A DNA stretch of 42,114 nucleotides. It comes from Reclinomonas americana ATCC 50394. Lineage: Eukaryota. Location of the stretch: NCBI GenBank assembly GCA_048213135.1, contig PS015828.1:1-42114 (forward strand), read 5' to 3'. Position 1 is the first letter of the stretch; each line of letters starts with the position of its first letter. Under the pieces are notes generated by a model that made no database searches, was not told where the DNA came from, and was given only the letters and a program-made list of their open reading frames with translations. A program made the position numbers and the translations under genes. Of the stretch, positions 3,301 to 40,107 are shown one piece after another.

Positions 3301-4800
3301 TGTTGGTATCGTGATCCATCCATGAATCGCTTGTGAACTCATGGTCGTCCCAGCTGGAAGGGCGAACAAGAACAGAGAGCACTGAGGATACAACTCTGTC
3401 TCGGCTAAATGATCCACTTGCCACAACGCAACATGGTAATGAACGGGAAGTATTCGTGGGCTCGTTGCAATCGTGGATCAGTACGATACGTGGCGTAGAG
3501 AGTTCGATAATCTTCGAGTGTGTCGCTGTATGTGGAGGAGAAGGTCAGGGAAGCTGCATAGCGGAGCATATGAACGACACAACGACAGACGCACGCGCGG
3601 TACGGGTTGGTGCCGTCATCGTCAACTAGGTCGCCAACGCTATTTGGCAGCAAGAAAGGCGGGTGTGCAGCTTCGCGAGTGGGACTCTGAGACACGATCG
3701 CAGGTGGTCAGTGGAGTAAGAGGGCAGATTTCAGATGATCGTATCAAGTAGCAACAAACCGGTGTGGGGCCCACCGCCGGACTACAATCACAAGAACAAT
3801 GGCGTAAACACAACGAAGGGAGCGTGAGTCGCACTCCTTTTTCGATCGGTGCAGCCTCCACACAAATTACTGCACTATATCTTCGCAACGTTTCGTAAAT
3901 GTAATCGCCCAGATGCAGCACAAAGTCCACATCGCGCTCATTGTCGACCAGATCAGTGTAGCCTCCCCAGTGATTGCGAGACCAGTTCTGGCACGCAATC
4001 GTGGCGATCTTCAGCCGCGCCACGGAGTTCGAGCCGGGCGGCGGGAAGGTCTTGAAGCGACCGACCTGTGCGTGGTGCAGAGTGAGGCGTCGTCGCTACT
4101 ATACCTACATCACCGACCGCTTGCAACATTGACGACTGAAACGCACTCGAGAGAACACATTTCCAGCCTGGAACTGGTAGTAGTAGGTGGTGTTGGGCTG
4201 CAGATCGGTGACCTTCTGTCGCGCAGTCATGTAGAAAGAACTCGACGCCGTGACTTTGCGGTCGACAACAAACGGGCCGACAAGCGCAGCACTGCACACA
4301 CACACACAGAGAATGTAAGCAACACCAACAAAAAGTGCACTGACTGCCACAGTCGCAACTTGCTGTCCATTTTGGCACCGTTGCCAGCGATGCTGCTCAC
4401 ACGCAGCGAAATGGCCACACTGGAAACGGAGTCGGTGGGCAGTGGACCTGTAGAGGGCGCATCGAGAGGCAACGCGCGTGTCCACAAGACGACACTGTTG
4501 TGGGTGGGATCGCCCGAGGCCACACTTTGCGGGAACTGCAGCAGGGACATGCATCAAATAATGAAGGAGTGTGTGCATTGACGCTTGTCTGCAACGTTCA
4601 CCTGCCAGTTGCTGCCAGTGGCGTCGGGAGTCGGTGGTGGCGGTGGCGGCGGGGGCGGCGGTGGCGGCGCCGTGTCGGTGCACAGAGCGCCAAAGCGGCC
4701 AGTGGCACAGCTGCCGCAGTTGGTACCGGCAAAGGGGAATGGGCACTTCACGCACGACGACAGTGAGCAAAAGAGAATTTCTCCGAAAAGTACATACACA

Positions 4801-4856
<56 letters not shown>

Positions 4857-5194
4857 ACACACACACTACGACGTACGTACTACTACTACACACACGACAC
4901 CGACCACGACGTCGACGTACGTACGACGGTCGGTACGGTCGGACGACGACACGTACTAGTNNNNNNNNNNNNNNNNNNNNNNNNNNNNNNNNNNNNNNNN
5001 NNNNNNNNNNNNNNNNNNNNNNNNNNNNNNNNNNNNNNNNNNNNNNNNNNNNNNNNNNNNNNNNNNNNNNNNNNNNNNNNNNNNNNNNNNNNNNNNNNNG
5101 TAACGGGAACGGTAACGGGTACGACGTTACACGACGTACGACGAGACGTACGAGACGAAGAAGTAAGTTACTACGTAACTAACGTACTACACAC

Positions 5195-6262: not shown

Positions 6263-9813
<3,551 letters not shown>

Positions 9814-11990: not shown

Positions 11991-12369
11991 GTGTGTGTGT
12001 GTGATCGCTTTACACAACAACAACAACAACAGAGGGCGAGCAAAATTACTCCTCGAATCCACTCCGTCGCCGATCGGAGAGCAAGGAAGCGAGCATCCCG
12101 CGCGCGTCCGGATTCGAATCACTAAGACACGCACTCCGCAGCAGCGAGCACCTCTCTCGCAAGTTCCGTCACCAAATCTGTGTACACTGCCGGGCGAGCC
12201 GAGACTCGTTCTTTCTCAAAGTCGTCGAGGAGGAGAATGGGGGGAAGAACAAGCGACGAGCGACCGGCAAAAAAATATGTAGGGAAAAAGAGAGAAAGCC
12301 GCCGGGGAGGGAGGGGGAGGGAGAACAAAAAAGAGTCTGCGTGAGTTGTTTGTTTGTTTTTTCGTGTTG

Positions 12370-13151
12370 TCACTTGCGGATCGTGTCGACGAGCCATGCC
12401 ATGGCCTCCTCCAGACCCTCGCCAGTCTCGGCTGAGCATGGCTGGATGGCCCACTTGCGGCCGCGGAGACCACTCAGGTTGAGTGTTTCCGAGATCTGCC
12501 ATGCCATGCCGTGGTGTGAGCATCGACGACAATAACAACAACGACGACACAGCGAACAAACGAGAGACCTCATCAGGTGGCAACGCAGTGACCAGATCCT
12601 GCTTGTTGGCCAACACCAGCAACGGCACTGCGGCCATTTGCTCCTCCTCCAGAATGAGCGCCAGCTCAATGCTGGTCTCCTCGAGGCGGCGACGATCGGC
12701 GCTGTCAATCACGTACACCAGTGCGTCAGTGTTCTCGTAATAGTTGCGCCAGTACGGGCGAATCGATCGCTGGCCTCCAATGTCCCACACGTTCAGCTTG
12801 AAGCCGTCTTGCACCAGGCTCTGCGCACGAATCGTCGTCAGAGAGGAGAGGGGCAAAGAGAGAGAAGGGAGAGAGAAGGAGCGGGAGAGAGAAAGCGAGA
12901 GAGAAGAGATGAGACGAGAGAGAGTGCTCTGATCGACTTGTTCACTGCTGCTCGTACGTCTATTCCCGTTTCTCTGTATCCGCGCACGCGTGCGTGTGTG
13001 CGTGTGTGTGTGTCAGTCTACTGATCGACTTGTTCACTGCAGCTCTCCTATCTTCTTCTCTGTCTTTCTTTCTCATTCTCTCTCATCTCTCTCTCTGTGT
13101 GTGCCTGCCTGCTGATTGACTTGTTCACAGTTACTTCTCCATCTCCTCCTG

Positions 13152-13191
<40 letters not shown>

Positions 13192-13800
13192 TGTGTGTGT
13201 ACCTTGATGTTGAATCCTTGAGTGGGGGTAATATGTGTGGGATCCTCATCGGCCAACTTCTTGAGGCACGATGTCTTGCCGGCATTGTCGAGACCGAGAA
13301 TCAAGATGCGAGCTTCTTGCTCGCTCTTCTTCAGCTTGCGCAGCAATGACAACAGACCCTGAAAACGAAAAGAGAGTGAGAAGGAGAGTGCCAAAGATAA
13401 GTCGGTCATGTCGCACACGCGCACGTGCTCACACATGCGCACGTGCTTGCCTCTTGTGTGTGCGTGTGTGTGTGAGAGAGGTGCATGTGTGAATGTGTGT
13501 GGAGGTGCACAGAGACAACACGTGCAATTTGAGTTCATGCGCGCAAGTGTATGCATCTCTCCCTCTGTGTGTCTTTCCACGTACGCATGCACAACAGTGT
13601 GTGTGCGTCTATGTGCGTGTGTGTGTATGAGAAAGAGAAGAGAGCAGCACACAGCAGTGACAAGAGCGTGTCCGATGGTGGCCATTCTCACACGCACACA
13701 CACGCAAAAGCACATGCACAGCTGCCGCCTTTCTCTCTCTCTGCCACACGCACACACTCTCTTGCACACACACATACACACGACACGCGCAACTCACCAT
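12370..13800 (-). CDS. ARL3: ADP-ribosylation factor-like GTPase 3
   Basis: ATG-only first coding exon (13798-13800), then [83 protein letters not shown] at 12370-12372. Confidence 0.95.
12929..13130. repeat. Three regularly spaced ~20-bp direct repeats (CTGATCGACTTGTTCACTGC) in an ARL3 intron
   Basis: Copies start at 12929, 13021 and 13112 (spacing 92 and 91 bp); the third is CTGATTGACTTGTTCACAG. Confidence 0.85.
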
Positions 13801-17216: not shown

Positions 17217-20200
17217 ATGGCTTCTGCCTCGCAAGCTCACCCGCACGTCGACGAGGTCGACGCGGAGGAGGAAAACCGCCGTTTGGTGGAGGTTTGTCAC
17301 TGCACACTCACACGCTCACACACACATAGACTTGCTTTTGTTGCATGCACTGCATGGAGCGAGACGAGAGACAACAAACAGGCAGTTGTCGCGCAAGTGC
17401 CATCTTGGCCATGTTCCAAGTGACAAGTCACACGCGCACTCTCCCCGCCTCTGTGTGTACTCACGCGTCTCTGCACTTGCTCTTTCTCGTCGCTGCCCTC
17501 CTCGCCCACTGTGCGCGAGTTGCACTTTGCACGCTCTTGCATGCCTGTTCCTTTTTCTTGTACGCGGAACATCTCACCGCCATGTGTGCGTCACCACTCA
17601 CTCGCACACTCTCTTATTTCTCCACCGTGCCTCCCTTCTCGCCACTCCACCTCCTTGTAACTTGCGCGCTCCCTCTCTTTCTCCACGCCACTTGCTTTCC
17701 ACTCGAGTTCTATTTTGGTCACTCTTGTACTCATCTGGTTGCATGACGACGACAACAGGATGCCCAGTCGCGCATGGCTGCGGCTTTTGGTCGCGAGGCC
17801 ATCCTCGCCCTGAAGAGCGCCAAGTACATTGTGTCGGGCCTGAACGGCGTGGGCGCAGAAGTCGGTATGTAAACGACTTGCGCCAAAGAGCAGGTTCCGA
17901 GTCTATCTACTCACGTGCTGCTGTAACACAGCCAAGAACATCATGCTGACTCGCATCGACACCATTGTGCTGCATGACACTCGCCCGACCACGTTCATGG
18001 ATCTCTCGTCGCAGGTACTCACTTGCTGCTGCTCAAACACGCACAATCACACTCTCACGTATGTCTCCTTGTGCACACACAGTTTGCGCTGTCGGAGGAC
18101 GACATTGGCAAGAACCGCGCCGAGGCCTGCTTCACTCGCATGCACGAGCTCAACCCGGCCATCAACGCTCACCTCGGTGCGTGTCACTGCCATCCCAGCT
18201 CCGCTTTTCTCTTTGTTTATTGTTGACGACGCTTTGTTGTGTGCAGAGACTGGCGACCTGTTCGACTTCCTGAAGAAGTCCGAGAACCTGCACCCAGACG
18301 GCCGCTCCATCTACGACTGCCTGGTGGTGCGTACCACTGTCCCTTGCGCTTGCCTTGTCTCTTTTCAACTGCCACTCACATTGTATGTCACAGATCTGTG
18401 ACACCAACATTGATGCCGACCTGCTGGCGCTCACCGACTGGTGCCACAACAAGGGCCTGAAGGTGGTGATTGCACTGTCGCGCGGTGAGTGGTGATGCTG
18501 GCTTGAGGTCAGAGAGGAGAAAATGGAGAATGCTGAGTGGGGGCATGCACACACAGGTCCGTTTGCCATGCTGTTTGCGGACTTTGGCCACGGTTTTGTG
18601 TGCAACGATCTGAACGGCGAGGAGTTCCAGGAGCTCCCCGTGCAGATGATTGTTGTGTTGTGTGTGTGCTCACAAGCAGCTCGGGTGTGTTCTGACAACC
18701 ACTCGGGGCGTGATTGCAGGAGGCCATCCCGGTGTACGACGAGGCCGGCCACCGTGTCGGACACAAGGGTGTGGTGCGCATCCGCGTGGCCGACGAAATC
18801 TGGAGCCACGGTCTGCAGGACGGCGACACTGTGTCGTTCAAGGTGCTGTGTGTGTTGTGTTGCGTGTGGATTACCTTCCAGTTGCTGACACTCGCTTGTG
18901 CAGAACGTCGACGGCATTGAGGGTCTGAACGGCAACGAGTTCCAAGTCACCATCATTGACCGCACTGCGTTCTCGATCGGCATGATCCCGCACGAGGGCG
19001 AGTTTGGCGGCAGCGGCTTTGTCAAGGGTGTGAAGAAGCCGGTGCCATTCTCCTTCGTTGCGTCGACTGCGAATGATCGCGTTCCGAGTTTGTGCGCGTG
19101 TTGCTCATTCTCTTCCTTGTTGTTATCACAGCGTCCGCTCCGCGACGTGCTGCAGAACCCGGGCCCGATTGTGCAGTCGGATCTGATGAAGATGTTCTCG
19201 TGCAACTCGGAGTCGCTGCACTTTGGCTTCTTGGCGCTGTCGCACTTTGTGGCGGAGAACGGTCGTCTGCCGACTCCGGGCAATGTGGCCGAGGCGGAGC
19301 GTGTGGTGCAAAAGGCGGAGACGATCTTTGCGGCCACTCGTGTGCAGTTTGTGCCGGGCTCGCCGCTCGTGCCGGTGCGCTCAGAGATGCCATTCGAGGA
19401 GGTGAACAAGGACCTGGTCCGCAAGCTGGCGCTGTACTCGCAGGGCAACTTGAACCCGATGGTGCGTCGCGATGAAGGATGAGAAGGAAAGAATGACGAG
19501 CGCTGAACTCCTTGCCCCACAACAGGCGTCGGTGTTGGGAGCTCTTGCGGCGCAGGAGGCACAAAAGGCGGTGACGAAGCGGTACCAGCCGCTGCACCAG
19601 ATCATGTACCTGGACTTTGTGGAGGTGCTGCCGGAGGAGCCGCTGTCGGAGGCTGAGCTGGCACCGATTGGAAGCCGCTACGACGGACAGATTGCGGTGT
19701 TTGGCAAGGCTGCTCAGGAGCGCATTCTGCGTCAGAAGATCTTCATGGTCGGCGCTGGTGGTGAGTTTGTATGCGAGAAAGACAGAAACGAGTGTTTCTG
19801 TTGCTCGCTTGCTGATTGGCGATGCGTTTTCTCCCTGCAGCTCTCGGTTGCGAGTACCTGAAGGACTTTGCGATGATGGGTGTGGGTTGCGGGTGCGTGT
19901 CACTGCTGTTGTGTACTTCTTATTGCTGTGGACTCACTGCGTTTTTTTGGTGGCCAGCGGCGGTGCCATCACGGTGACCGACATGGACACGATTGAGGTG
20001 TCGAACCTGAATCGCCAGTTCCTATTCCGCAAGCAGCATGTCAACGTTGCGGGCTTTGTGTGCATGTCGATCAGATCGCAAATGCGATGTTTTCTGATTG
20101 TTGTCGGTGGCTGTCTTCGCGATATCAGAGCTACAAGGCTGCGGTTGCGTGCCAGCAAGCGAGCAACATGAACCCGAATATGCATACCACTGCGCTGCAG

Positions 20201-23200
20201 CAGATGGTGGCACCGGCCACTGAAGGTGCGTTGCAAATCCGCAGGTCATGTCTCTGTGACGTAGCCCTTGTGTCGTAACACTTTTTGTGTGGGTGCATCA
20301 GGCCTGTTCGATCGCGCCTTCTGGGAGGACAAGGATATGGTGGTGAATGCACTGGACAACATCCAGGCTCGCCTGTACGTCGACGACCGCTGCGTGCAGT
20401 TCCGCAAGCCGCTCGTTGAGGCCGGCACGGAGGCCGTCAAGTGCAACTGGTGTGTGCATGTATTTTCCTGATGTTTTTCCGTTATCCTTCGCTCACTAAG
20501 CCTTGGTGTGCACAGCTGTGTGAGTACACTGGCTGTTTGGGAGTGTGTCCAGCGTGTCGTGGCTGGCAGTGTCTCACACCACGTTTTTGTGTCCGCTGTA
20601 CAGATTGTGATTCCGGGCTTCTCGGTCAACTACGGCTTCCATCGCGAGATTGACCCGCCAAAGGCCAAGAAGTGCACTGTGACCAACTTCCCTGTGCGTA
20701 ACTTGCTTGTGTAGGTGTGTAACTTGATTGTGCGTTGCATTCTGACCTTCGGTGTTGTCTTGTGCGCAGTACGTGCGTCATTGAATAACCCTTGTACCTT
20801 TATTACCAAGCGAATGACTCACGTTTGTTTTTTCCCCTCCTTGCTCTTGATTGCATACAGCTGGTGAGTTGGCCCATGTGTTGCGCGATGGTCCTGTCAC
20901 GTGTTGCTTAGTTAACCCTTCGAATCGCAGATCGAGCACTGCATCCAGTACGCGCGCGAGATCACGTTCCAGAAGCTGTTTGTGGACTGCCCGGAGGCTG
21001 TGGCCGAGTACCGCAACAACCCGCAGGCCTTCCTGGACAAGGTCAAGGAGATGCCGGAGACGGAGAAAGTCGATGTTGCGTTGAGGCGATCTGTATGTCG
21101 GAGTCGACGGGAAGATACTGATGTGGTGGTGCGTCGCAGGTTGCCCGCAAGCTGGCTGGCATTCTGAGCGCCGAGAACCGCTGCGCCTCTCTGGAGGACT
21201 GCGTGGCGTGGGCGCGCAACCTGTACGAGGAGGAGTTTGTGCACTCGGCGTTCCAGTGGCACTCGCTGTACCCTCGTGATGCCAAGAACCGCGACGGTGA
21301 GTCTTGTGCCGGCATTGCCTGCCATGTGAGTTGATGACTTGCTGACTCGGGGCATTATTGCAGGCACGCCGTTCTGGGGTGGCGTCAAGACTTACCCGAC
21401 GGAACAGCGATTCGACCCGGCAAACCCGCTGCACGTGCAGTTCCTGGTGCGCGACAATGTATTGTTGGCTTGTTGCAGTTGCCCTGCTCATCCCCGGTTG
21501 GTGCACAGGTGACGGCGACTGCGCTGCGCGCCAAGACTCTCGGCATTGCTGTGCCGTCGGAGTTCCGTCTGGATAGCCGCCGTGGAAAGGCGCTGGTGCT
21601 GGAGATCGCCTCGCGCGTCAACGTGAAGGCGTTCAGCAACTCGGCGGTTTGTAAAGCGTGTGGTGGTGGCGCGTGTGTCGAGTTCCTCATACCGTTGGTG
21701 AATGCGATGAGCAGAAGGCATCGACCGACGGTGAGGACGAGTCGAACGTGTCGCTGGTGCAGGAGTTCGACCCGAACGCCGTGCTGAGCTCGCTCCCGTC
21801 GCCGAGCGACATCTCGCCGTCGGTGACCGCCGATGAGTTCGAGAAGGACAACGACCTCAACTACCACGTGGACTTCCTGATGGCCGTGTCCAACATTCGT
21901 GCCATCATGTACCGCATCGACACGGTGGACCGCCTGAAGATCAAGCTCGTTGCCGGTCGTGTGATTCCGGCCATTGTGACGAGCACGGCTCTGATCTGCG
22001 GCTACGCGAGCTTTGAGATGCTGAAGGTGTGTGTGGATTTTCGGATGAGATTGCACTGAACTTGTCGGTTGGCTGACTGCTGGGTGCAGATCTGGTCTGG
22101 CCGGCCAAACTCGGCGATTCGCGAGTCGACGGTCAACCTCGGCACGCTGATGTTCACCGTGCAGGAGCCGATGGAGGCGCCGAAGGTGAGAGTGTCTATT
22201 GTGTGTGCCTGCTTCCTTCGGAGCGGTAGGGTGATGACTGATTGACGTGCTTTGTTCAACGTACAGTGGAGCTACAAGGGTGCGAGTGGCGACCACACGT
22301 TCACGCTGTGGGACAGCGTGCATGTGGACGCGCGTGGTCTGACGCTGAAGCAGGTTTGTCGTTGCTGTTGCTCTCCTCGCTGTTGCTCCTTGTCTCTGTC
22401 GCTCTCCTCGCTGTTGCTCTGTGTCTCTATCGCTCTCTTCGCTGCTGCTCTGTGTCTCTGTCGCTCTCTTCGCTGCTGCTCTGTGTCTCTGTCACACTCC
22501 TCGCGGTTACTCTGTGTCTTGTGTCGCTCTCCTCGCTGCTGCTCTGTGTCTGTGTCGCTCTCCTCGCTGTTGCTCCGTGTCTCTGTCGCTCTTCTCGCGG
22601 TTGCTCTGTGTCTCTGTCGCCCTTCTCGCTGTTGCTCTGTGTCTGTGTCGCTCTCCTTGCGGTTGCTCTGTGTCTATCGCTCTCTTCGCGGGTGCTCTGT
22701 GTCTCTGTCGCTCTCTTCGCTGTTGCATTGTGTCTGTCGCTCTTCTCGCTGTTGCTCTGTGTCTGTGTCGCTCTCCTTGCAGTTGCTCCGTGTCTCTGTC
22801 GCTCTCCTCGCTGGGCGTACTGCACACAGGCGTCCTCACCAATGCTATTCATTCCTGGCAGTTCTTGGACAAGATGAAGGCGGAGCAGGAGCTGAACATC
22901 GAGACAATCTCGGTGGTGCGACAGGACTACGTGGTGTGGTTTGGCGCTCGCGGGGCGCTGGACAAGCCGCTGCTTGAGCTCGTGGAGAATATCGTGAAGA
23001 AGAACAAGCTGCACGTGGACCCGTCTGGCATTATCGAGTTCCTGGTGTCGGCACCGTTGCGTAGTGGCCGTCTGCACCGCGCTTGGTGAATCGATTTTGT
23101 CTCACTCACGCGCGCGTGGTGATTTTACTGCAGTGATGGCTCCGTGGTGAAGAAGCTGGATCAGGAGGGCAAGGAGTACGAGGAGGACGGACCGGAGCAT

Positions 23201-23230
23201 CTGCCAAAGATCTTTGTGCGCGTGCACTGA
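17217..23230 (+). CDS. Ubiquitin-activating enzyme E1, divergent UBA1/UBA6-like
   Basis: SGLNGVGAEVAKN; RYDGQIAVFG; VGAGALGCEYLK; TDMDTIEVSNLNRQFLFR; NALDNIQARLYVDDRCV; catalytic KCTVTNFP(YL)IEHC; FEKDND; KLVAGRVIPAIVTST; UFD region FTLWD; TGA at 23228-23230. Confidence 0.93.
22370..22815. repeat. Intronic minisatellite with a 29-31 bp unit (consensus about CTCGCTGTTGCTCTGTGTCTCTGTCGCTCTC), roughly 14-15 degenerate copies
   Basis: Tandem units are visible directly inside the E1 intron 22354-22861. Confidence 0.9.
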
Positions 23231-23569
23231 GCGCACCCGACAATGCGGTTCGAGGGGGTACTTTGAATGAAGGAGTGAAACGACTTTCCATCAATAGTTG
23301 GGGAGGAGGACACCAGAGAGAAGGAGAAGAAGAAGAAAAAGTTGCATGGTTCGTAGATCGGTGTGCGTTGTCGTCGATCGATTTATAATGCATAACAAGA
23401 TGACGATGATGGGCACGACAGCAGCTGTCTCGATTTACAGGCCTGCTGTGGAGAGTTGCCGAGGGTAGTCGAAGAGATAGATGGAGAGAGAGTGAGAGAG
23501 GAGGAGGGGGAGCGGGAGTGGTGTTGCGTGCCTGGGTTCGTGGTCGATCAAACTTCCCAGCCCAGTATT

Positions 23570-26500
23570 TCATCGGTCCAACATGGTGGGCCATGCAGGC
23601 GCCCGAGCCCCGTCCATTTCCGAGGCGAGTTGGTTGGACGCGAGGAGTGTGTGCTGAGAACCACCGACTGTTGCTCCACAGTCGGGACAGCGGCTGGTTT
23701 GCATGGCCCCGCCGCACTCGCCGATAAAGTATGGATGTCCGTTGGGGCATTTGAACCAGTGTCCCGCCGCCGACGAACCACCCAGCTCCTGTCGCATGGC
23801 GGCCACGATCATCTGTCGTTCCTCCTCGGACAAGCGATTTGCGATGGCTGCAAGAGCCTCCAGGCCTTCGTACCTCGGGTTCAACTCTCGCAGCTGCGAG
23901 AAAGTCGTCAGCGACTATCATGATATCACCTGTACACAAGAAAGCAAAACGCGAGCAGACGGACGCAACAAAACGAAGCAGTCGCTTTGCTTTGTCAACG
24001 TTGGCATGCTGTCCAGACGACTCCATGACAATCCAGTGATGCAGGGCGCGACAACGGTGCTCCACCATCACTTGATCGTCAGCCGCCACACGCTGCAGCC
24101 GAAGCAGGTGGTGAGTGAGCGACAAGTGCTCGCCGAAATGAACACCGCTACACACCTCGTACTCTGTGGCGGCATCGACGCGACGGTTCGCGCGTTGATA
24201 CGCCTCGGCCAGTTGTAGGCGTGCATCGTGGTGGCTCGGAAGCATGTCCAGAACGCGTTTGAAGTTTTTGATGGCCGCCTTCAAGTTGTTTCTGCACACC
24301 TCGCTGTTATTTTCAAGCCGCCTACTCTCACACATTCCGTGAACTGTGATGCGCAACGAATCCAATGCCGCAAAGCCGGCTGCCATACAACGCTTGCTGT
24401 TGAGACGACGCTTGACTTTGTCAATGTCGTCCAGCGCGTGCCGAATCGAGGCTGAATACCGAAGTGTGCGACGCACCGATGCCTGCGGTCACCAGCATCT
24501 GAGACTAAAGTAGCCGTGGGCACGAGCAAAAGAGGCACATTGGCACGCAACTCGGCAGCTCGGACACTTTGGGAATCCGATTGCCTTGTGCTCCGACGCA
24601 TCGGGATCGTCCTGTTGCAATCCTTTCATGTACTCGTCGAGGCCGGTAACCTCGAAGACGTGATGACAGTCGACAAGCTCGACAAACAGTGCGTCTCCAT
24701 CAAACTGCATCCATGCGGACAGGTGTCAGCATAACACGAAAACAAGCGTCGCAGACGACAACCGCGTACCTCAGAGAGAGGCATCATGTGAATCGGCTCC
24801 TCCATGTCACCGTTACAGATGCGACACGCTCGCGGACATGGTTCGCCACACACACCAATACACGTATGACCACACTCAAGGACCTCCTGCGATGGTACGT
24901 GTCAAACCGGATGAAAGCATAGAGGATCGATTGGTATATCTATAGCATACGAACCGCACAGGGACGCATGCATGGCGGTCGATCACACGGGTCACTGCAC
25001 AGTTGGTGACAGGCATGGTGTTCGCAGTGGTACGCACACGGTTCGCCGCATGGCACGCAGATCTCGCCGCAGGCCTTCTGGCATCGCGAGTGCACACAGA
25101 AGTTTTCACATGGCAGAGCGCATGGCGGGCAGTCGTCGCAGCATTTCTGTCACTCGGTGTGAGATGCTTACTTACAAAAGCGCGCCCGACAGCGCAAGAA
25201 GCTAATAACGCAACCGACTGACACTTGTGGCCACACAGAAGGTACCGCTTGCACGGCTCAGTGCACGGTACATGCTGACGACCACCATGACACTTGCCAC
25301 ACGTCCCCGCACACGAATGACCGCATCGCTCCAGCACATGTCGACAGGGCTCACGACACTCGATTTTCTCGAGTGGCACTGAGCACGCCACGTAGGCCGT
25401 GTGTCCACACGGAAGCAGTCGGCGCACGTTGTGCCCGCAAGGGGCGCACTCCTCGCTGCACTTGCTCTGCATGATAATGACTCACTCTGAGCACTGCACG
25501 CTGCGAGCAGCGACTGCCAACCGCTACTGCACAGACTGCTGAAACACACCTGGCACTGATGTCCGCAGGAGAGGATCTTCGGACACGAATGCTGGCACTT
25601 GTCGAATTCTGCTGGGTCAAGGTGGCACGGCACCAGCTGGGTGTGTCCGCACGAAGGAATGACCTTGTCGACCAGTTCCATACACTTCCCCTCAATTACA
25701 GCCTTTGCATTCCAGCATGGCACAGTGAGACTTGGGAGTGTATGTGCTGTGAGAAGAGAGGGGAAACGACGCCGACGATCGAAACAGCCACAAATTCACC
25801 TGTGTTCAGCCGGACAACTGCGCGGAGTCACAGTCTTTTCCTTCGTGCACGGATAGGACTCGCACGATGCAGCGTGGCAGCACAGCGTGCACATGTGACC
25901 ACATTCTCGTCGCCCACCGCACGGTAACTTGCAGCCGCCGAGAATCACGTCATCAAAATCACGCGATTTGCTGACCGACGTGACGTTCTCTGCAACACGA
26001 ATGTGAGCAAAAAGCACGCATGGGGCACCCTACAAACAAACGACATGTTCCAAACCTGGATGGTGGTGACATTGCAGAGACAGCGCAGGTCCACACGCAT
26101 GTTGCTCGTCAAATTCACGGAATACTTGCCGCCACAGACCGCAACCCTGAGACTCAGACAACAACTTGCGGTTGCCGATCACGTACATGGCTGCGTTTGC
26201 GCCGACAACAAGAATGAGAACACCTCCATCGCAAGATACTGACTGCAGACTGTACCATGTCGGGCGCGAGAGAGCGCGACACAGATGCGGTTCTCGATCT
26301 TGACGAATCCAGTGACGCCTTCCATGTTGGATCGAACAAGCGACAACAGGATAATATCGTTCTCTTCGCCCTGGTAATCGTCGATCGTGGACACACGAAC
26401 ATGTTGAATGTCAGACGTGCCGGGAGTGTTCGCACGATGGCGGCGGAGCGCATCTTTGAGCTCCATCACTTGTCCCGTATCTGTGACACCAGCACACTTA

Positions 26501-29500
26501 GCTGCGGCGCGGAAAACACTCTTGAGTAGTACCCTCACGCAACAAGTAGTAAGCAAAGTGATGCGGTCGGCCGTGTAGTCGCCTTGCTGCAAGATATAGC
26601 AGCAAAGTCGCACCAAGAACTCGGCCTCGTGAGGGTTCTTCTTGCTGCCCTCTCCGGTCTCCTGGTGCTCGTGCGTCACGAAATAGAGATTGCGCGAAAT
26701 GCCGCGAACAGACGGGTACTCCAGCACGGACTCGTGATCCGTGAGTCGCGGATAAATGGGTCGCACCAAGCTTCGCAATGTGCAATGGGCACCAACACAC
26801 CCTCCTAACACAACACTCACGCAAGTACGAACCGACTGATCTCCGGACGCATACGATGCTGATTGGACAGAGTCTCGTGCCCGTGACCGACTGCCACGAG
26901 GCGTTCTGCGCGTGTGAGACCGTCATCAAATTGAGTCAGTACAAACACATCGCATGAAGCAAGCGGGCAACTCACCAAACAGGGAGACATCGTGCTTGTG
27001 GACGCGAGAGAGGTGATAGTCGGCAGCATGAGGTCTTGCAGACATGAAATGTCAGCGCTTGACAAAGAACGGTGTGCACAAGAAGAGAGCAAACCGAAGT
27101 TGCTTGTGGTCGCCGATTAGCACACATTGTTGAACATCTTCGAACAGGGCGCAGACGGCATGCGCTTCAAAGATTTCAGCAGCCTCCTCGACAATCACCA
27201 CGGACGGCGATATCTCGTGACTTGACAGCAAACTCGCGTACTTGGCAGCAGCTGCAAGCAACTCAATACTCTCAGCAAAACAACCCAAACCCACTGTGCA
27301 GTCAACGTGACAAACCAGTCGTGGTCATGGCAATCACTTTGGCGGAAGCCATAGCTCTGCACATTTGCACGCACACAGAGAGTGCAACAGTGAATTTGAG
27401 AGACCAGGTGTCATTGTCATCTTGTTGTCACACGAAACTCAATGTCACGCTCCATGTTCAGCTCTTCCAGCTGGTGTTGCGCGTCGAGGTACCGTTGATT
27501 GTAGTCGTCGATTAGCGGACGCAGTACGTCCATCATGACTTGCTGACGCAGTTGACGATGCAAGACCTTGCGAACGACAGGCGAGAGCTGCCAGAGATCG
27601 TCGACACCAGCGAAATCTACGTTGGCAGCAGGGGCGGCATCAGAATTCTGCTGTGAAAACTCTCCGACAAGATGATCAACGCAACCAGTTTCCATCATCA
27701 GCTTGACGGCTTCGACTGCCTCGGCTTCGGCTTCGGCTATGGAGGGAAACACAATCAACAACAGAAAGTCGGCAACGCACTATTCAGCCGTTCGGTACCA
27801 TGCAGATCCGCAGGAACTGTACAGTGACGACCAACATTAGCAAGGACGAATGCAAAACAACACCAAAGAAAGGCGCAAGAAACATGACAAACCATCGCCT
27901 GGAGCTTCTCTCGACACCGCTGCGACCGGAGCGACATGTGGGTGTGATGTATGGACATAGGAGACAGAACAAGAACAACCCCTCTTACCGTCGTCGTTTG
28001 CCTCCGCTTGCTGCAGTGCAAGCTCAAAGTCTGCAAACTTGCGATCCGAGAACTGTTCCACATCGCGGTCGTACCAGCCATCGTCATCACCGTCGTCATA
28101 GTCGTCATCATCGTCAAAGGCTTTCGGAATGATGGTGAAAGCGCGCTCACATCGACGATAGGCAGCGGCCAGCTCTCGTGCCTTGTCTGGCGAATATCCG
28201 AGCCACCGTGCGACGATGGCCATTTCGTCCATCGGTTGCTGCCGATCGCGCTTCTTGGAAAGAATCTGTTGGCCTCGCTGAACAAAGTACTGTCGAAGGT
28301 CCGATGGAATTCGGGTTTGCTCCAGATTGCACACCGGAAAGACATACAGCGAGGCCAAGACCTGTATCTGCTCCTCCAGTTGCTTGGACATCTGACGCAG
28401 TTCGTACATGGTCTTCCCGCGACGACCCGTAAGCTTCACCTGCCGTACCGCTTCCATCAGAGTGTACGGCTTCAGGCGCTCGCTTCGCGACCGGCCACCA
28501 ATTCGAATCACGCTGGTTGTAGTGTCGAGAATCGCCTCCAGGAACTGATCGATTGCGTGATTGGTGTAGCACACGCACAGGATTGGCCGATTTCGCAGGT
28601 TGACCGCACGATCCGTGCCCTCCGAGTTGGCCAGCAGCAGTCGAGTGAGAACGAGGCCGATGTACGTCTTGCCGGTGCCAGGTGGGCCTTGAATCAGTGG
28701 CATCTGAGAATTGAAGCACAGTTGCAGCGCAGCAAGTTGACTGGGGTCGAGACCAAGTGGAAGGTCCAACCACGTCGGCTGCCGCGGATTGTGTCGACGG
28801 CGGACAAGGGGAATCAGCTCTCGGACCTCGGGAGACATCTGCAAACACGGCGTGTTGACCGGTCAGTCAACCTCTCGAATAGAAAGTATTCAATTGACAA
28901 CGAGCGCCCGCACCAGAGTTGAGAAGTCCATAGGCGCAGCCGTCAGGTAGCCAGGCGGAATCAACGCGCGTCGGTCATCGGCCGAAGCCAGCAAGTACGG
29001 ATAGAAGAGTTGAATGTCGTTCAACATGGCCATCGACTGCAGTCTACGCAGTACGTGCACCGAGGCCTCGAAGTAGCTGCTGGTGGACTCGACCTGTGAA
29101 CAGAAGAGACACACATGAATACGCGGTCGGCAACTCATCCCTGCGCCAATCATCACACTTCTCGCGTTCCGTACCATCGTAAGAGTCTCAACATCGGCAC
29201 AAGGCAACACGAGATCACCACCGGTGACTCCAAGGATCTGCAAATCGACATCCTCGCCCTTGCAGCGAGTCACCACTCCACAAATGACGTGCTCCTCAAA
29301 GCGGTCGGCGCTCAACGCGACGAGAGACCCGCCCTTCAACAGATCGCGCTCAGGGCCCTTCTTCGGTCGATTCGTCTGCTTCCTCTTCGACTGGTTTGCT
29401 TGCACAATCTTGAAGTGGTAGCACAAGCCCACGCGTTGCACCAGAGTCGGTCCTGTGCAGACAACGCGGTCGAAGACGCGCAAGCTGCGTGGAGGTCGGC

Positions 29501-31725
29501 GGTTGGCTCGAGTAGCTTTCCGCAACTCTTCGATGCCTTCACGAAGAGGTCGCATGCAGTCCTCTCGCTGCATCACCAAAGGAAGAAGAGCAAAGGAGAA
29601 CGGTACCATTTTTGAGAAACCGCAACAACACACAAAGGCGTGAACAATCACATTACAACTGACCATGACGTAGAATTGCAATGCCAAGTACTGGTCAATC
29701 GACTCTAGTTTGTGCGACGTGGTGATGTTGGTGTTGAGGGCCGCAGCGACTTGATCCAAGCGGCGGTTGTCAATGAGTTCCTCCAGCTCGGGGAAAAGTG
29801 GCACCGTTCGAAACTCCTCTGCTCCACGACTCACGGTGAGTACGGCAAGGAGCGTGGCACACCGCCTATGAATTCGCACTCACCAGTGAGGCCGTCGAGT
29901 GAGGCCGGCTGATCTGCGCCTGTCGCCTGCCTGGCGTTTGGTTGTCGACGAGCTCGCTGCTGCCGCAGAACTTCCTCCGCAGCATCTCGGGCCGCAAACA
30001 ACCGATCACTGACCGCGATGATAGCATCCATCGTGACAGCAGACTGTCCGACCCTACTTGCGCTGGAGTCCGTCAGCCAGTCTATCAATCTTCGAATGCT
30101 GTCGACGGGAATCAACTCCAGAGGGTTTTCAACACGCCCAAAAACGGCGACATACAGCCGAAGCAGGTGGAACAACAATTGGAAGTCACTGACTTGCATC
30201 TCGTTGCTCTCAATAGCGTCCTGTGTTGCACAAATTCCACACGCACACATGTACTCAGCATTGCATCGACCGACTCGTAGCTAAGTGTTGACTCACCTGC
30301 AAATACAGCCGGATGCTCTGAAGGCGACCGGTAAACTTGCGGCATGCCCACAATGCATGCACCAGCTTGATACATGCATGTTGTTGGTAAGTTGACGCCT
30401 CCAGCAGGAGAGGAACGATCTCCACCAGCCGGTCGAAATCCTCGTCGGAAGGGCAGGCACTGCCAGCGAAATTCGCCTCCATTGCCGACATGAACTCGGG
30501 CGCCGTCAGATCGAGTATCACCTCGTTCGCGACGGAAGAAGTGAGCGCAGCATTTGATGCGCCTGCTTTCACCCGCTTGAAACAGTCTCGAAGACGAACG
30601 GCGGGTGGCATTGGACCTGGAGGGAGGAGAGCTAACGTGAGCACACCACATGGCAGTCGCAGTGGCGTGCTTCACAACGAACTCACGTGCTGGCTTTCGC
30701 TGCTTCTCAGACGGAGAGGACTTTGAAGCCGAGGTCGGAGGAGATCGAGCAGAGGACGCTGAGACGGAGGAGGCGTGTTGAGAAACAAGGCACCCGATGC
30801 ACGGACGGCATGGTAGTCACCTTGAGCTCGAGAGGAAGCAGCCGCAGGGGGGCTCTTCGCGCTCCCATGAGCGCGCGGTGTGCGTGGGTCTGCATGTTGT
30901 GTGAGTGACGATAATGCATTGTGAACATTGTGTGTCAACACACCTGCTGACGAGCTGCCGACCTGCTTGCGAGGTTTCTTGTGGGCATGAGTGGCCGGGG
31001 GAGCAGCAGCGGTGGCCTGCTGCGCATGCGATGCAGGCGGTTTCGCACGCTGAGAAACTTTGGAGGATCCGGACGCTGCAGGTGCATTCCCCACGCTGGG
31101 TTCTGCTCGTCGCCGTCAGCGAGAACACAGCGGTAGAAGGGCGCAGTGAGCACCCTGAACCTCCCACACACACGATATCAACGATCGGGAAGAATGAGAC
31201 GAATGAACTCACTTTTGCGAACAGGACCGGCGGTGGGTATTGGGGGACGTGACGACGATGCACTCGCTCCCACGTTTCCCGATGCACCGCCGCCGGCTGC
31301 AGCGGTGGCAGTCGGGGTCGCTGTGTTGGTGGCACGCACGTTCACAGTCTGCGTGAGCCTGCCCTTCTCCAGCGCCTCCGCCACCAAGCCAGCGAATACC
31401 GGCTTACTGAGGACAGGAAGTGCGCGCGCACTCGCACCCTGCGCAGCAATATCCTGCATGGTTAGTGCGCCGAGTACCGTAGTAAAACACTTGGCGAGCG
31501 CGATGCAATCGCAACAGCATCGTCGTCTTGGCCAATCCTCATCTGAAACGCGTCATAACGGGAATGCTTCGCGACGTGGTCGCGCAACGATTGCCACTCT
31601 GCAGCTGCGGCACTTGCTGTTGCTGCGCTGTCGTCGAGCTCCTTGCGCCAAGGCGGTATACCAACATCGCACTCAAAGTACACCGTGATGGTGGCACGCG
31701 TGGTGCCACCGCTCCCAGAGGCCAT
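23570..31725 (-). CDS. ZNFX1: ZNFX1-like SF1 (Upf1-type) RNA helicase with NF-X1 zinc fingers, RING-like domain and C-terminal RZ finger
   Basis: FRTVPLFPELEEL..QYLALQFYVMREDCMRPLREGI; Walker A IQGPPGTGKTYIG; CYTNHAIDQFLE; VIVEEAAE; LIGDHKQLRP; QHRMRPEIS; TIDDYQGEENDIILLSLVRSN; NRICVALSRAR. These are followed by repeated CGH-type NF-X1 fingers, RING-like CRIC..DCHHVFE..KCPSCR and RZ GHWFKCPNGHPYFIGECGGAMQTSRCPDCGATVGG. The start codon at 31725 is tentative. Confidence 0.92.
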
Positions 31726-31968
31726 TTGAGGATTGAAAAAAAGGCGAGGATGCGACGGCGATCGCGACCTGCAATTCCTGTCAAATGCATCACATTCCGA
31801 CCATGTTTCCGGCCACCACGACTGCACGTAAAAAGATTCTCACACCCGGGATAAATGTGCATGTGATCATCTGCCCCGCCAACTTGAACGCAGTTGGACC
31901 AGCGGTTCCAGCTTCTTGTACAAAACGCATTTCGAATTTTCCACAGCAGCACTCTGCAATATATCACA

Positions 31969-33341
31969 ATGGCTGTGAGCTTGTCGACTGAGGCCTTTGC
32001 GACGGCGATTCTGCACGCGTCCGCACACCCCACACGCGCCGTATGCGGAGTGTTTGTGGGCACACAATCGGGAAAGCACGTGGAGGCGCGCCACGCATGC
32101 CCTCTCTTCCATCTCTGGCTCAACTCGTCGGCCATGCTGGAGGTGGCGCTGAGCATGGTGCGGGAGAAGGGAGAGAGGGAGGGAGGGAGAGGGAGAGGGG
32201 ATGTGGGGGAGGTGGGAGAGAGGAGTGTGTGCAAGAGTGTGCAGGAGTGTGCAAAAGTGTGTGTGTGTGCAAGTGTGTGTGTGTGTGCNNNNNNNNNNNN
32301 NNNNNNNNCACACTCTCTCTCTCTCTCTCTCTCACGCCCACACACATTTCTCTTGTTCTGAGAGACAGAGACAGCCACATTCTCACCTTTTGAACGCATT
32401 TGAGAGACAGGAAGGCTGACGCATTCTCTCCCGTTCCCTCGCGTTGGGAAGTAGACGCGTTCCCTTCTGTATCTCTCTCGCTCACTCTTGTCCTGGGAGA
32501 CAACCGCATTTACTCACTCTGTCTCTAGCGCACGCACTCCCTCACTCAGAGAGATAAGATAACAGACTCGTTCTTTCCACTTTCTCTCTCACTCGCACTC
32601 TCGCACACGTTCTCTCCTCTCCTTCTCACACTCTGGGGGCAGAACAACAGGCACGATTCACTCACCTCCCTTCTCATGCATTCGGAGGGACAGGAGGCAG
32701 ACACCTTCCCCGTTCTCTTTCACACACACACACACGTTACCCTCACGTTGCTAAGCAGACGCATTCCCTCCTCTCTCTCTCACACACACGCACACAAACC
32801 CTCACTCGGAGAGACAAGCAGACGCGTACCCCTCACCTCCTCTTCCTCTCCACTCTTTGGTACACGTATCCCTCACTCGGAGAGACAGGAAAGCAAACAC
32901 ATTTTATCTCGTTCTTTCTCTTTCTCGGAGAGTACAACGGGCTAGATTCTCCTTCCCTCCCTTCCTCTCCCCCTCTCCCTCCCTTCTCTACCCCCTTCCC
33001 CTCACGCCCTCTTTCCCCCCTCCCCAGGTCCACAACGAGGAACTTCACCTCCAACAAGATGTGTTTCCGGGCACCGTTGCGTCATCCCTCACCCCCCCCT
33101 TCTCCTGTCCTCCCTTCTCCCCCTCCCTCTCTTTCCTAATTAGCGTGGCCCACAGCTGTACGTCGAGAAGCGCTTGCTCGACGCCGTCGAGTGGCTGGGA
33201 GGGGCGACAGTGAAGAGTGCGGTGGCAAAGACGGCCGCGGTACGCAAGGCCCACGTGTCGGTGTTTGATTTCGACGATCACTTTGCCGACGTGTCGCTGG
33301 ACTGGAGGAATCCGCAGGTGGCTGAAGCGCTGCGAGTATAG
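31969..33341 (+). CDS. EMC8: ER membrane complex subunit 8/9 (UPF0172, MPN-like); middle exon(s) probably in the gap
   Basis: MAVSLSTEAFATAILHASAHPTRAVCGVFVG..ACPLFH..MLEVAL and C-terminal VFDFDDHFADVSLDWRNP; TAG at 33339-33341. Confidence 0.85.

Positions 33342-40068: not shown

Positions 40069-40107
<39 letters not shown>

What the first reader, a model, noticed from the sequence alone, without database searches (positions are those of the whole stretch)
20450..20693. 4-nt microexon encodes the E1 residue at the UBL-selectivity position, and this E1 is atypical there
Seen: AAC TG|gtgtgt..gcacag|CTGT|gtgagt..gtacag|ATT. Exon 20516-20519 is needed because direct joining gives TGA, and it yields KCNCCIVIP, aligning without gaps to UBA1 KGNVQVVIP. 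Established: that Gln in UBA1 contacts ubiquitin Arg72 and helps set UBL specificity (Arg in UBA3, Glu in UBA6). Here it is Cys. The crossover loop NYGFHREIDPPKAKKC looks closer to UBA6 (SYNSHRDPP) than to UBA1 (SYSSSQDPP), and YSRQ has become QSRM. Inference: this is a specialised E1 paralog that may charge a different ubiquitin-like modifier.
Basis: partly seen in the sequence, partly recalled or inferred. Interest (0 to 1): 0.7.

Follow-up and report, generated by a model that had tools for sequence, protein, structure and literature searches.

The report
Tiny exons in a divergent E1
A protist gene for a ubiquitin-activating-type enzyme seems to use exons only 3 to 4 bases long, and it belongs to a rare, separate branch of that enzyme family in which the pocket that normally reads ubiquitin's tail is changed.

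Summary
The sequence is as described. A 28-exon, 1093-aa UBA1-type E1 gene lies at 17217-23230 (+). The 4-nt exon CTGT (20516-20519) is the best-supported splice path. It gives two typical introns of 66 and 84 nt, has strong flanking splice sites, and ranks first of 48 frame-keeping paths. It is not strictly "needed": a weaker donor at 20454 (GTGCAT) gives KCNWCIVIP through one atypical 150-nt intron. Both paths put Cys (TGT) at the yeast Uba1 Gln576 position.

Two further 3-nt exons, TAC and CTG, encode the Y-L of FPYLIEH. A transcript-like ortholog, P0232, reads FPYL at that spot.

The enzyme is not UBA6-like. With P0232 (53% identity) and a Spironema protein (42%) it forms a separate long-stemmed clade (SH-aLRT 100). 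The clade has Ala or Cys in place of Gln, a remodelled crossover loop, a weak FCCH match and no Pfam-detectable UFD.

Whether it charges ubiquitin or another modifier is open. Kinetoplastid UBA1b (Asp at this position) still loads ubiquitin. No cDNA from this organism was available, and no second UBA1 could be looked for.

The parts
17217..23230 (+). UBA1-type E1 gene: 28 exons, 3282-nt CDS, 1093 aa, ATG at 17217, TGA at 23228-23230
   Evidence: Own spliced alignment against P0010 and a 46-protein profile. Borders curated by hand. Open frame checked. A plain spliced alignment against the ortholog P0232 reproduced most of the exon borders; it differs at four exon ends, at the 20454 donor and at the CTG microexon. 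Pfam on window ORFs finds ThiF, UBA_E1_SCCH, E1_4HB and a weak E1_FCCH.
20302..20449 (+). Exon 15. It ends ...AAG TGC AAC TG in phase 2 and encodes ...NALDNIQARLYVDDRCVQFRKPLVEAGTEAVKCN plus the first two bases of Cys618.
   Evidence: Aligns to yeast Uba1 up to Asn574. Pfam ThiF 45.4 bits.
20450..20515 (+). Intron A, 66 nt, GTGTGT...CACAG
   Evidence: Donor 8.3 bits, acceptor 8.4 bits. Length is typical of the gene. No counterpart in the contig behind the related fragment P0001, where N-C-C is contiguous.
20516..20519 (+). 4-nt microexon CTGT. C completes codon TGC (Cys618). TGT at 20517-20519 is Cys619, the Gln576-equivalent.
20520..20603 (+). Intron B, 84 nt, GTGAGT...TACAG
   Evidence: Donor 4.8 bits, acceptor 8.1 bits.
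20454..20459 (+). Rival donor GTGCAT. If used, the exon reads AAC TGG TGT (N-W-C) and one 150-nt intron runs to 20603.
   Evidence: Chosen by spliced alignments that do not score splice sites. It scores 2.0 bits. It has A at +5, which 0 of 22 uncontested donors of the gene have.
20604..20693 (+). Exon 17: IVIPGFSVNYGFHREIDPPKAKKCTVTNFP. It holds Tyr629 (Tyr586-equivalent), the crossover loop and the catalytic Cys643 (TGC 20673-20675).
   Evidence: Alignment of the ortholog to human UBA1.
20770..20772 (+). 3-nt microexon TAC (Tyr650), between introns 20694-20769 (76 nt) and 20773-20860 (88 nt)
   Evidence: Acceptor 8.6 bits, donor 6.8 bits. Part of the best of 22 paths. P0232 reads FPYLVDH and Spironema reads FPYHIDH. 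Also picked by the plain alignment against P0232.
20861..20863 (+). 3-nt microexon CTG (Leu651), followed by intron 20864-20930 (67 nt)
   Evidence: Acceptor 8.6 bits, donor 8.3 bits.. P0232 has FPYL. The plain alignment against P0232 left a one-residue gap here instead.
20931..21092 (+). Exon 20: IEHCIQYAREITFQ..., the start of the SCCH domain
   Evidence: Pfam UBA_E1_SCCH 38 bits..

Best explanation
The window holds an intact, very intron-dense gene (28 exons, introns mostly 60-88 nt) for an E1 enzyme of the single-chain UBA1 type.

Splicing (inferred, not shown). In the stretch that encodes the modifier-tail pocket, the crossover loop and the catalytic cysteine, three extra short introns have cut the coding sequence into exons of 4, 3 and 3 nt. 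Each short intron carries its own good 5' and 3' splice sites. They are probably recognised intron by intron and removed one after another, because the flanking sites of a 3-4-nt exon overlap. The 4-nt exon supplies the last base of Cys618 and all of Cys619.

The enzyme. It keeps what adenylation and thioester formation need:
- the Gly-rich ATP loop;
- TDMDTIEVSNLNRQFLFR;
- NALDN;
- the SR of the first repeat;
- the catalytic Cys643.
It should therefore adenylate the C-terminal glycine of a ubiquitin-fold protein, take it onto Cys643 and pass it to an E2.

Its place in the family. It is not a canonical UBA1. With two other proteins it forms a separate, sparsely sampled clade. In that clade the Gln of the Arg72 pocket is Ala or Cys, the Tyr-to-DPP loop is two residues longer, the FCCH domain is weakly conserved, and the E2-recruiting C-terminal domain is too diverged for Pfam.

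Most likely role (inferred, about 55%). It is a second, E2-restricted E1 that still loads ubiquitin or a modifier with a ubiquitin-like tail, as UBA6 and kinetoplastid UBA1b do. A dedicated non-ubiquitin modifier is the main alternative.
For: Gene and splicing:
- The frame is open over 1093 codons, and 25 of 27 introns are 47-88 nt (median 68). Without the microexons, two introns would be 150 and 237 nt. None of the 22 uncontested introns is between 84 and 466 nt.
- All six splice sites that flank the three microexons (three acceptors, three donors) score 4.8-8.6 bits.
- These are the only 3 places on the + strand with strong sites 3-4 nt apart.
- The microexon path ranks 1st of 48 at site 1. 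The two-microexon path ranks 1st of 22 at site 2.
- A splice-aware alignment picks all three microexons unaided.
- P0232, a 1098-aa protein on a 3466-nt contig, reads FPYL where the two 3-nt exons give Y-L.
- The related fragment P0001 reads KCNCC.
- One open frame of the related fragment P0078 runs across the place of window intron 21647-21711. Intron content therefore differs between these relatives.

Clade:
- winE1 is 53.2% identical to P0232 and 42.5% to Spironema P0122, against 29-37% to the 45 other full-length E1s.
- The three form a clade with SH-aLRT 100 and a stem of 1.12 changes per column.
- Of 139 columns at least 90% conserved in 51 other E1s, the three members keep 120-124. Seven are changed in all three, and 4 of the 7 lie in residues 605-645 (P=0.0026, stretch chosen post hoc).
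- Pfam finds no E1_UFD in P0232, P0122 or the window. The canonical P0010 scores 112.5 bits.
- The P0232 model (pLDDT 87.9) overlays human UBA1 over its full length, TM-score 0.93.

Ubiquitin precedent:
- UBA1b has Asp at the site and forms UBA1b~Ub, but does not load UBC2 (PMC7647121 passages).
Against: - There is no cDNA or RNA-seq from this organism.
- Spliced alignments without splice-site scores prefer the single-intron NWC path.
- The same splice-aware alignment that found the microexons also made one false 12-nt exon at 18720-18731.
- The splice matrix rests on only 14 introns of the same gene.
- P0001's contiguous TGY TGY is equally what the NWC path would predict by homology, with one base changed.
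- On function: every E1 in this analysis that is known to accept Arg72 has a polar or acidic residue at this position (Gln, Glu, Asp). The clade's Ala/Cys has no such precedent.
- The family-wide changes cluster around the tail pocket, which fits a changed modifier better than an unchanged one.
- Whether a canonical UBA1 exists beside this gene is unknown.
Confidence: 0.62

Rival explanations
1. There is no 4-nt exon. The exon runs on to AAC TGG TGT and uses the donor GTGCAT at 20454 with one 150-nt intron, giving KCNWCIVIP. The internal cacag|CTGT|gtgagt is a chance look-alike. Both paths may also be used as alternative isoforms.
For: - The path is open in frame and has the same length.
- It is chosen by alignments that charge per intron and ignore site quality.
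- It needs no intron gain relative to the P0001 contig, where the donor sits at the same codon border.
- It differs from the relative's N-C-C by one base.
- The gene does tolerate weak donors such as GTACTC and GTTGCG.
Against: - The donor scores 2.0 bits against 8.3 for the microexon donor.
- It has A at +5, seen in 0 of 22 uncontested donors.
- A 150-nt intron falls in a length gap where none of the 22 uncontested introns lies.
- Simulation gives 3.65 chance microexon look-alikes per 42-kb strand over 7 spacings. From that I estimate about 0.004 for a 150-nt intron (my arithmetic).
- Trp at that spot matches none of the three relatives, which have C, N and T.
- It ranks 4th of 48 paths.
Confidence: 0.18
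2. The clade is the dedicated E1 of a ubiquitin-like modifier other than ubiquitin, whose tail lacks Arg at position 72. The small non-polar Ala/Cys and the longer loop make a wider, less polar pocket. The diverged FCCH and C-terminal domains fit another modifier body and a private E2.
For: - Gln is replaced by Ala or Cys in all 4 clade sequences that cover the site: the window, P0001, P0232 and P0122.
- Four of the 7 clade-wide changes at conserved columns lie between the ESGT loop and the catalytic Cys.
- Residue 72 is the established specificity filter, and in UBA6 the same pocket takes FAT10 Tyr161 through hydrophobic contacts (passages of PMC12355090).
- FCCH scores 25-34 bits against 97 in the canonical P0010, and UFD is not detected.
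Against: - Asn, Tyr and an acidic residue of the pocket are kept. Glu at Tyr+5 is present in all three full-length members. DPP is kept in the window and P0232, and is NPP in Spironema.
- UBA6 (Glu) and UBA1b (Asp) lack the Gln and still load ubiquitin.
- No candidate modifier or E2 was found. None could be searched for in this genome.
Confidence: 0.3
3. This is the organism's only UBA1-type gene, simply fast-evolving, and it does the ordinary job of charging ubiquitin for all E2s.
For: - Only one window of the genome was seen, so no second gene can be shown.
- All catalytic motifs are intact.
Against: - The three clade members share derived features across 42-53% identity and sit on a stem of 1.12. 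That points to an old separate lineage, not one fast-evolving species.
- The E2-recruiting domain, conserved in canonical UBA1 (112.5 bits in P0010), is not detectable.
- Canonical UBA1 is otherwise kept with Gln in 51 of 51 other full-length E1s compared.
Confidence: 0.07
4. It is a decaying pseudogene, and the apparent need for tiny exons reflects frame damage.
For: The frame can be kept at 20449/20604 only by one of two special splice choices.
Against: - 1093 codons are open across 28 exons.
- 120 of 139 conserved columns are kept, including every catalytic motif.
- The tiny exons have above-median splice sites and encode the residues seen in orthologs.
Confidence: 0.02

Closest known systems
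Canonical UBA1 (yeast Uba1, human UBA1)
   Same: - Single chain with inactive and active ThiF repeats, 4HB, FCCH, and SCCH with the catalytic Cys.
- The best sequence matches among solved structures: 618 bits to human UBA1 for the ortholog and 51 bits to yeast Uba1 for the window exon.
- The predicted fold of the ortholog overlays human UBA1 at TM-score 0.93.
- Asn574 and Tyr586 equivalents are kept.
   Different: - Gln576 is Cys (Ala in the orthologs).
- ESGT-x-G has become EAGT-x-A/S.
- The Tyr-to-DPP loop is two residues longer, and the segment before the catalytic Cys is two residues shorter.
- LYSRQ has become DAQSR.
- Pfam E1_UFD is not detected and FCCH is weak.
- It forms a separate clade on a long stem.
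UBA6 (ubiquitin and FAT10)
   Same: - It is a UBA1-type E1 that lacks the Gln (Glu in human UBA6).
- It uses a private E2 and accepts a non-Arg tail residue in the same pocket (PMC12355090 passages).
- It is therefore a functional analogy for a second E1.
   Different: - It is not related by descent. Sequence scores are lower than to UBA1.
- A group of five sequences that I labelled UBA6-like from their motifs forms its own clade in the tree.
- KGH-x-E/Q and CTLKSFP are absent here.
Kinetoplastid second E1 (UBA1b)
   Same: - It is a protist second UBA1-type E1 on a long stem (1.57).
- It has a non-Gln residue at the site and a remodelled crossover loop.
- It has EAGT instead of ESGT, and no Pfam UFD in the precomputed domains.
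- It loads ubiquitin but not every E2.
   Different: - It is a different clade.
- It has Asp, not Ala/Cys, at the site, and a different loop (SYADGGAAD...).
- It is about 1150-1230 aa long.
3-nt microexons described in other eukaryotes
   Same: Exons as short as 3 nt are reported for the dinoflagellate Amphidinium carterae, and the same passage cites Drosophila, mouse and chicken (PMC12584245 passages).
   Different: - Here three exons of 4, 3 and 3 nt lie within 350 nt of one gene.
- Each sits between introns of ordinary length for the gene.
- They code for pocket and active-site-flanking residues.
- None is backed by transcript data.

Membership tests
Single-chain canonical E1 (UBA1/UBA6/UBA7 type) | Two ThiF/MoeB-like repeats in one chain, the second with intact adenylation motifs | tested here: met
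   Window ORFs match ThiF at profile positions 1-30, 40-72 and 106-152. The orthologs P0232 and P0122 each have 2 ThiF stretches. The motifs GAGALGCE, TDMDTIEVSNLNRQFLFR and NALDN align.
Single-chain canonical E1 (UBA1/UBA6/UBA7 type) | Catalytic cysteine in an SCCH domain after a crossover loop | tested here: met
   Cys643 (KKCTVTNFP) aligns with the catalytic Cys column of 51 other E1s and of human UBA1. Four window ORFs match UBA_E1_SCCH.
Single-chain canonical E1 (UBA1/UBA6/UBA7 type) | FCCH and four-helix-bundle inserts in the first repeat | tested here: inconclusive
   E1_4HB scores 48.4 bits (cut-off 25). E1_FCCH scores 25.2 bits, below its cut-off of 29.5. In the orthologs FCCH scores 26.9 and 33.7 bits.
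Single-chain canonical E1 (UBA1/UBA6/UBA7 type) | C-terminal ubiquitin-fold domain that recruits the E2 | tested here: inconclusive
   Pfam E1_UFD is not found at E up to 0.01 in the window exons, P0232 or P0122. The canonical P0010 scores 112.5 bits. The P0232 model aligns to human UBA1 over 1096 alignment columns, including the C-terminal part, with pLDDT of about 55 to 93 there. The window protein itself was not folded.
Canonical ubiquitin-specific UBA1 | Arg72 pocket Asn574 / Gln576 / Tyr586 / Asp591 (yeast numbering; PMC3731359 passages) | tested here: not met
   Asn617 and Tyr629 are kept. Gln576 is Cys619 under both splice paths. The Asp lies two residues further from the Tyr, with a Glu at the old distance.
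Canonical ubiquitin-specific UBA1 | Groups with UBA1 orthologs in a tree | tested here: inconclusive
   It forms its own 3-member clade (SH-aLRT 100) that joins a weakly supported backbone (78; 16 of 39 inner branches are drawn open). The tree used a quick search without bootstraps, 42 rows and 1011 columns.
Canonical ubiquitin-specific UBA1 | Forms a thioester with ubiquitin | not testable with these tools
   This needs a biochemical assay.
UBA6 | Greater sequence likeness to UBA6 than to UBA1; KGH-T-E and CTLKSFP motifs | tested here: not met
   Solved UBA6 scores 36 against 51 bits for the window exon, and at most 492 against 618 bits for P0232. The motifs are absent.
Kinetoplastid UBA1b | Same clade; GGN-V-D and SY[AS]DGGAAD loop | tested here: not met
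   It is a separate clade. The motifs differ.
Spliceosomal microexon | AG and GT directly flank the exon, the frame is restored, and both resulting introns are of workable length | tested here: met
Spliceosomal microexon | Presence in mature mRNA | not testable with these tools
   No transcript of this organism was found. The searches gave only relatives.

The most novel reading that the evidence does not exclude
This E1 clade is the missing activating enzyme of Gcp4. Gcp4 is an orphan ubiquitin-like protein reported only from eukaryotes that carry the mitochondrial type II secretion-derived system: some heteroloboseans, jakobids, malawimonads and hemimastigotes. It has been proposed to act as a peptide modifier (bioRxiv 10.1101/790865, passages and all of section 8).

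That paper lists no E1. One of the three full-length clade members comes from the hemimastigote Spironema. The clade is as sparsely distributed as that system, and its tail pocket is changed.

If this is right, the window would come from such a lineage, and the 4-nt exon would encode a specificity residue of a new conjugation pathway.
Probability: 0.1. Interest if true: 0.85.

Novelty: new variant of a known kind. Interest (0 to 1): 0.55.

Why it matters
**Annotation.** Gene finders and protein-guided aligners will either break this gene or silently choose the NWC path and drop Y-L. Three exons of 3-4 nt within 350 nt form a compact test case for how short-intron spliceosomes handle overlapping splice sites. 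They also show intron turnover between close relatives.

**Ubiquitin biology.** Single-chain E1s are usually counted as UBA1, UBA6 and UBA7 (PMC11354881 passages). A further old clade with a non-polar residue in the Arg72 pocket and a diverged E2-docking domain would mean either a new way of reading ubiquitin's tail or an undescribed modifier pathway in deep-branching protists.

**Prior description.** My literature searches turned up no description of this clade. These were few full-text searches of open-access papers only, so this is not proof of absence.

Tried and rejected
- the FCCH/4HB ORF searched against longer proteins gave no hit at E up to 0.001.
- the 30-aa exon 17 gave no match among solved structures.
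- the five short introns have no similar copies elsewhere in the window, so there is no sign of an introner-type repeat.
- I compared the read-through tail of P0001 with the window translated after each candidate donor. Both scored 7.0, and 970 of 2875 GT positions do as well, so this does not discriminate.
- the strong-site pair at 8476-8480 in the TPR gene is the end of an ordinary exon, not a microexon. The pair at 19526-19531 is the start of exon 11.
- the 12-nt exon at 18720-18731 proposed by the splice-aware alignment is false. The exon is continuous from 18720 to 18842.
- a symbiont-type E1 with a targeting leader was considered and dropped. The N-terminus is only about 25 residues before the SR motif and matches the start of P0232.
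- the protein atlas returned only generic UBA1 clusters.
- no Rfam family is present in the window.
It was not re-sent.
- the script stopped on an N in the window. It was corrected.
Full report
**Observation.** Exon 15 ends ...AAG TGC AAC TG at 20449. Then come gtgtgt...gcacag (20450-20515), CTGT (20516-20519), gtgagt...gtacag (20520-20603), and ATT GTG ATT CCG from 20604. The window is eukaryotic, with G+C between 0.52 and 0.61 across 2-kb blocks, and the E1 gene is full of short introns.

**Gene model.** I wrote a protein-to-genome aligner and ran it against homologs returned by the searches. I curated the borders by eye.
- The result is a 28-exon gene from ATG 17217 to TGA 23228-23230, with a 3282-nt CDS and 1093 codons and no internal stop.
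- Window ORFs match Pfam ThiF, UBA_E1_SCCH and E1_4HB, and weakly match E1_FCCH.

**Is the 4-nt exon real?**

Evidence for:
- Joining 20449 directly to 20604 gives a stop at residue 617.
- With the microexon the two introns are 66 and 84 nt. Of the gene's 27 introns, 25 are 47-88 nt, with a median of 68. Of the 22 that are not in question, 20 are 47-83 nt and two are long: 467 nt and 508 nt, the latter filled by a tandem repeat. None lies between 84 and 466 nt.
- A matrix from 14 confident introns scores the four sites 8.3, 8.4, 4.8 and 8.1 bits. This is at or above most of the leave-one-out scores of the training set.
- A scan of the whole window looked for an acceptor of at least 7 bits and a donor of at least 4.5 bits lying 3-9 nt apart. 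It finds 10 places per strand, against 3.65 per strand in 20 Markov simulations. For spacings of 3 or 4 nt the + strand has 3 places, all in this gene.
- I checked two of the other + strand hits. Both are ordinary exon ends.
- Among 48 stop-free, frame-keeping paths the microexon path ranks first, at 1.6.

Evidence against:
- A GT at 20454 (GTGCAT) also keeps the frame and gives KCNWCIVIP through one 150-nt intron.
- Alignments that charge per intron and ignore site quality choose this path. It ranks fourth of 48, at -3.9.
- Its donor scores 2.0 bits. It has A at +5, which none of the 22 uncontested donors has (G 16, T 3, C 3).
- The splice-aware aligner that picked the microexons also produced one false 12-nt exon elsewhere.
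- The matrix is small and comes from the same gene.

I put about 0.8 on the microexon.

**Two more microexons.** Between TNFP (ends 20693) and IEH (starts 20931) every homolog has two residues.
- The only good path is TAC (20770-20772) plus CTG (20861-20863). The introns are then 76, 88 and 67 nt, and the site scores are 5.3 to 8.6 bits. This path ranks first of 22.
- It yields FPYLIEH. The ortholog P0232 reads FPYLVDH and the Spironema protein reads FPYHIDH.

**Relatives.** The first search, with the FCCH/4HB ORF, found nothing.
- Exon 15 found 77 E1s. One close fragment, P0001 (81% identity), reads ...EAGTEAVKCNCC and then runs into an intron.
- An all-against-all HMMER search with exon 24 gave one close fragment, P0078 (64%), and otherwise canonical E1s.
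- In a 46-protein alignment the best full-length match, at 41%, was P0122, which EukProt assigns to Spironema sp. BW2.
- Searching with P0122 found P0232, 1098 aa on a 3466-nt Logan contig. The contig is barely longer than the coding sequence, so it looks like a transcript.
- winE1 is 53.2% identical to P0232 and 42.5% to P0122.
- P0078's single open frame spans the place of window intron 21647-21711. Intron content therefore differs between the window and its relative. That makes an extra intron A in the window plausible.
- P0001's contiguous N-C-C fits both splice paths.

**The residue.** Yeast Uba1 aligns to exon 15 up to Asn574, so the second residue after it is Gln576.
- PMC3731359 (passages) names Asn574, Gln576, Tyr586 and Asp591 as the pocket for ubiquitin Arg72. 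It names UBA3 Arg190 as the counterpart of Gln576.
- Human UBA6 has Glu at this position.
- Both splice paths give Cys619 (TGT).
- Among the fetched E1s that matched a motif pattern, 76 of 82 have Gln, 5 have Asp and 1 has Glu. Eight kinetoplastid-type proteins that the pattern missed also have Asp.
- All 51 other full-length E1s in a second alignment have Gln.
- P0232 and P0122 have Ala.

**A separate clade.** The tree used winE1 plus 41 chosen, mostly full-length, proteins out of the 237 fetched. Fragments and many near-duplicate sequences were left out. It has 1011 columns and comes from a quick IQ-TREE search with SH-aLRT only.
- winE1, P0232 and P0122 form a clade with support 100 and a stem of 1.12.
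- For comparison, the kinetoplastid second-E1 clade has a stem of 1.57 and a UBA6-like group has 0.43.
- The backbone is unresolved.
- Of 139 columns at least 90% conserved in 51 other E1s, the clade members keep 120, 124 and 122. Seven columns are changed in all three. Four of the seven lie in residues 605-645, which hold 15 of the 139 columns (hypergeometric P=0.0026, stretch chosen after seeing the data).
- Pfam finds no E1_UFD in the clade, and FCCH is weak.
- An AlphaFold model of P0232 (pLDDT 87.9, pTM 0.88) overlays human UBA1 along its length (TM-score 0.93, 35% identity). It overlays UBA6 less well (7pvn 0.86, 30% identity).
- By sequence too, solved UBA1 beats UBA6 and UBA7: 618 bits against at most 492 and at most 451. 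The suggested likeness to UBA6 is therefore not supported.

**Function.** All adenylation motifs and the catalytic Cys643 are kept, so the enzyme is very likely active.
- What it loads is inferred only.
- Leishmania UBA1b, a member of the Asp-bearing clade, forms a ubiquitin thioester but does not load UBC2 (PMC7647121 passages). UBA6 loads both ubiquitin and FAT10 (PMC12355090 passages). Loss of the Gln therefore does not by itself exclude ubiquitin.
- No known Arg72-accepting E1 in this analysis has a non-polar residue at this position, and the clade-wide changes cluster at the tail pocket.
- I rate a second ubiquitin-type E1 with its own E2s at about 55% and a dedicated other modifier at about 30%.

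**A lead.** bioRxiv 10.1101/790865 (passages and all of section 8) describes Gcp4. It is an orphan ubiquitin-like protein restricted to eukaryotes with a mitochondrial type II secretion-derived system, hemimastigotes among them. The paper lists no E1. Spironema is a hemimastigote. The link is speculative, and the paper's supplements, which hold the Gcp4 sequences, were closed.

**Left unchecked.**
- Transcripts of this organism.
- Whether the genome has a canonical UBA1.
- The organism's identity.
- The metagenome and viral contig collections, which were closed.
- The prokaryote-only genome collection, which was not used.

Noticed in passing
window 20694-20930: Two 3-nt exons, TAC at 20770-20772 and CTG at 20861-20863, are needed to give the Y-L of FPYLIEH. 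Without them the gene has a 237-nt 'intron' and lacks two residues that every homolog has.
   Followed up: yes
window 22365-22813: A 31-nt unit (CTGTCGCTCTCCTCGCTGTTGCTCTGTGTCT) is repeated 14.6 times, with 84% matches. It fills the 508-nt intron 22354-22861 of the E1 gene.
   Followed up: partly
window 21647-21711; fragment P0078: The window has a 65-nt intron here. A related contig's single open frame runs straight across this point yet reads into the next intron. This indicates intron gain or loss between close relatives.
   Followed up: partly
window 2256-4854 (-), 7573-9810 (+), 12125-13793 (-), 23109-29879 (-), 31888-32358 (+), 35547-36233 (-), 39474-39920 (-): Neighbouring genes by Pfam on long ORFs: PhoD-like phosphatase, a TPR protein, an Arf GTPase, a ZNFX1-type helicase (AAA_11/AAA_12, ZNFX1 domain), UPF0172, the cathepsin C exclusion domain, and a JAB/MPN domain protein. 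Strands alternate and the genes are closely packed.
   Followed up: no
window 39805-41844 (-): A 680-codon open frame with no Pfam match at E up to 0.001.
   Followed up: no
window 4961-5099, 6553-6656, 32289-32308: Three runs of N, 263 in all, which are probably assembly gaps.
   Followed up: no
proteins P0125, P0181, P0186, P0188, P0193 (not in the window): A supported clade (SH-aLRT 100) of unnamed E1s carries KGH-x-Q...CTLKSFP, the motif pattern of human UBA6 but with Gln. UBA6-like E1s may be more widespread than the passages I read imply (PMC11354881).
   Followed up: no
window 19342-19401: A 60-nt in-frame stretch starts with GT and ends with AG, and one alignment treated it as an intron. 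It is coding: P0232 has the matching 20 residues.
   Followed up: yes
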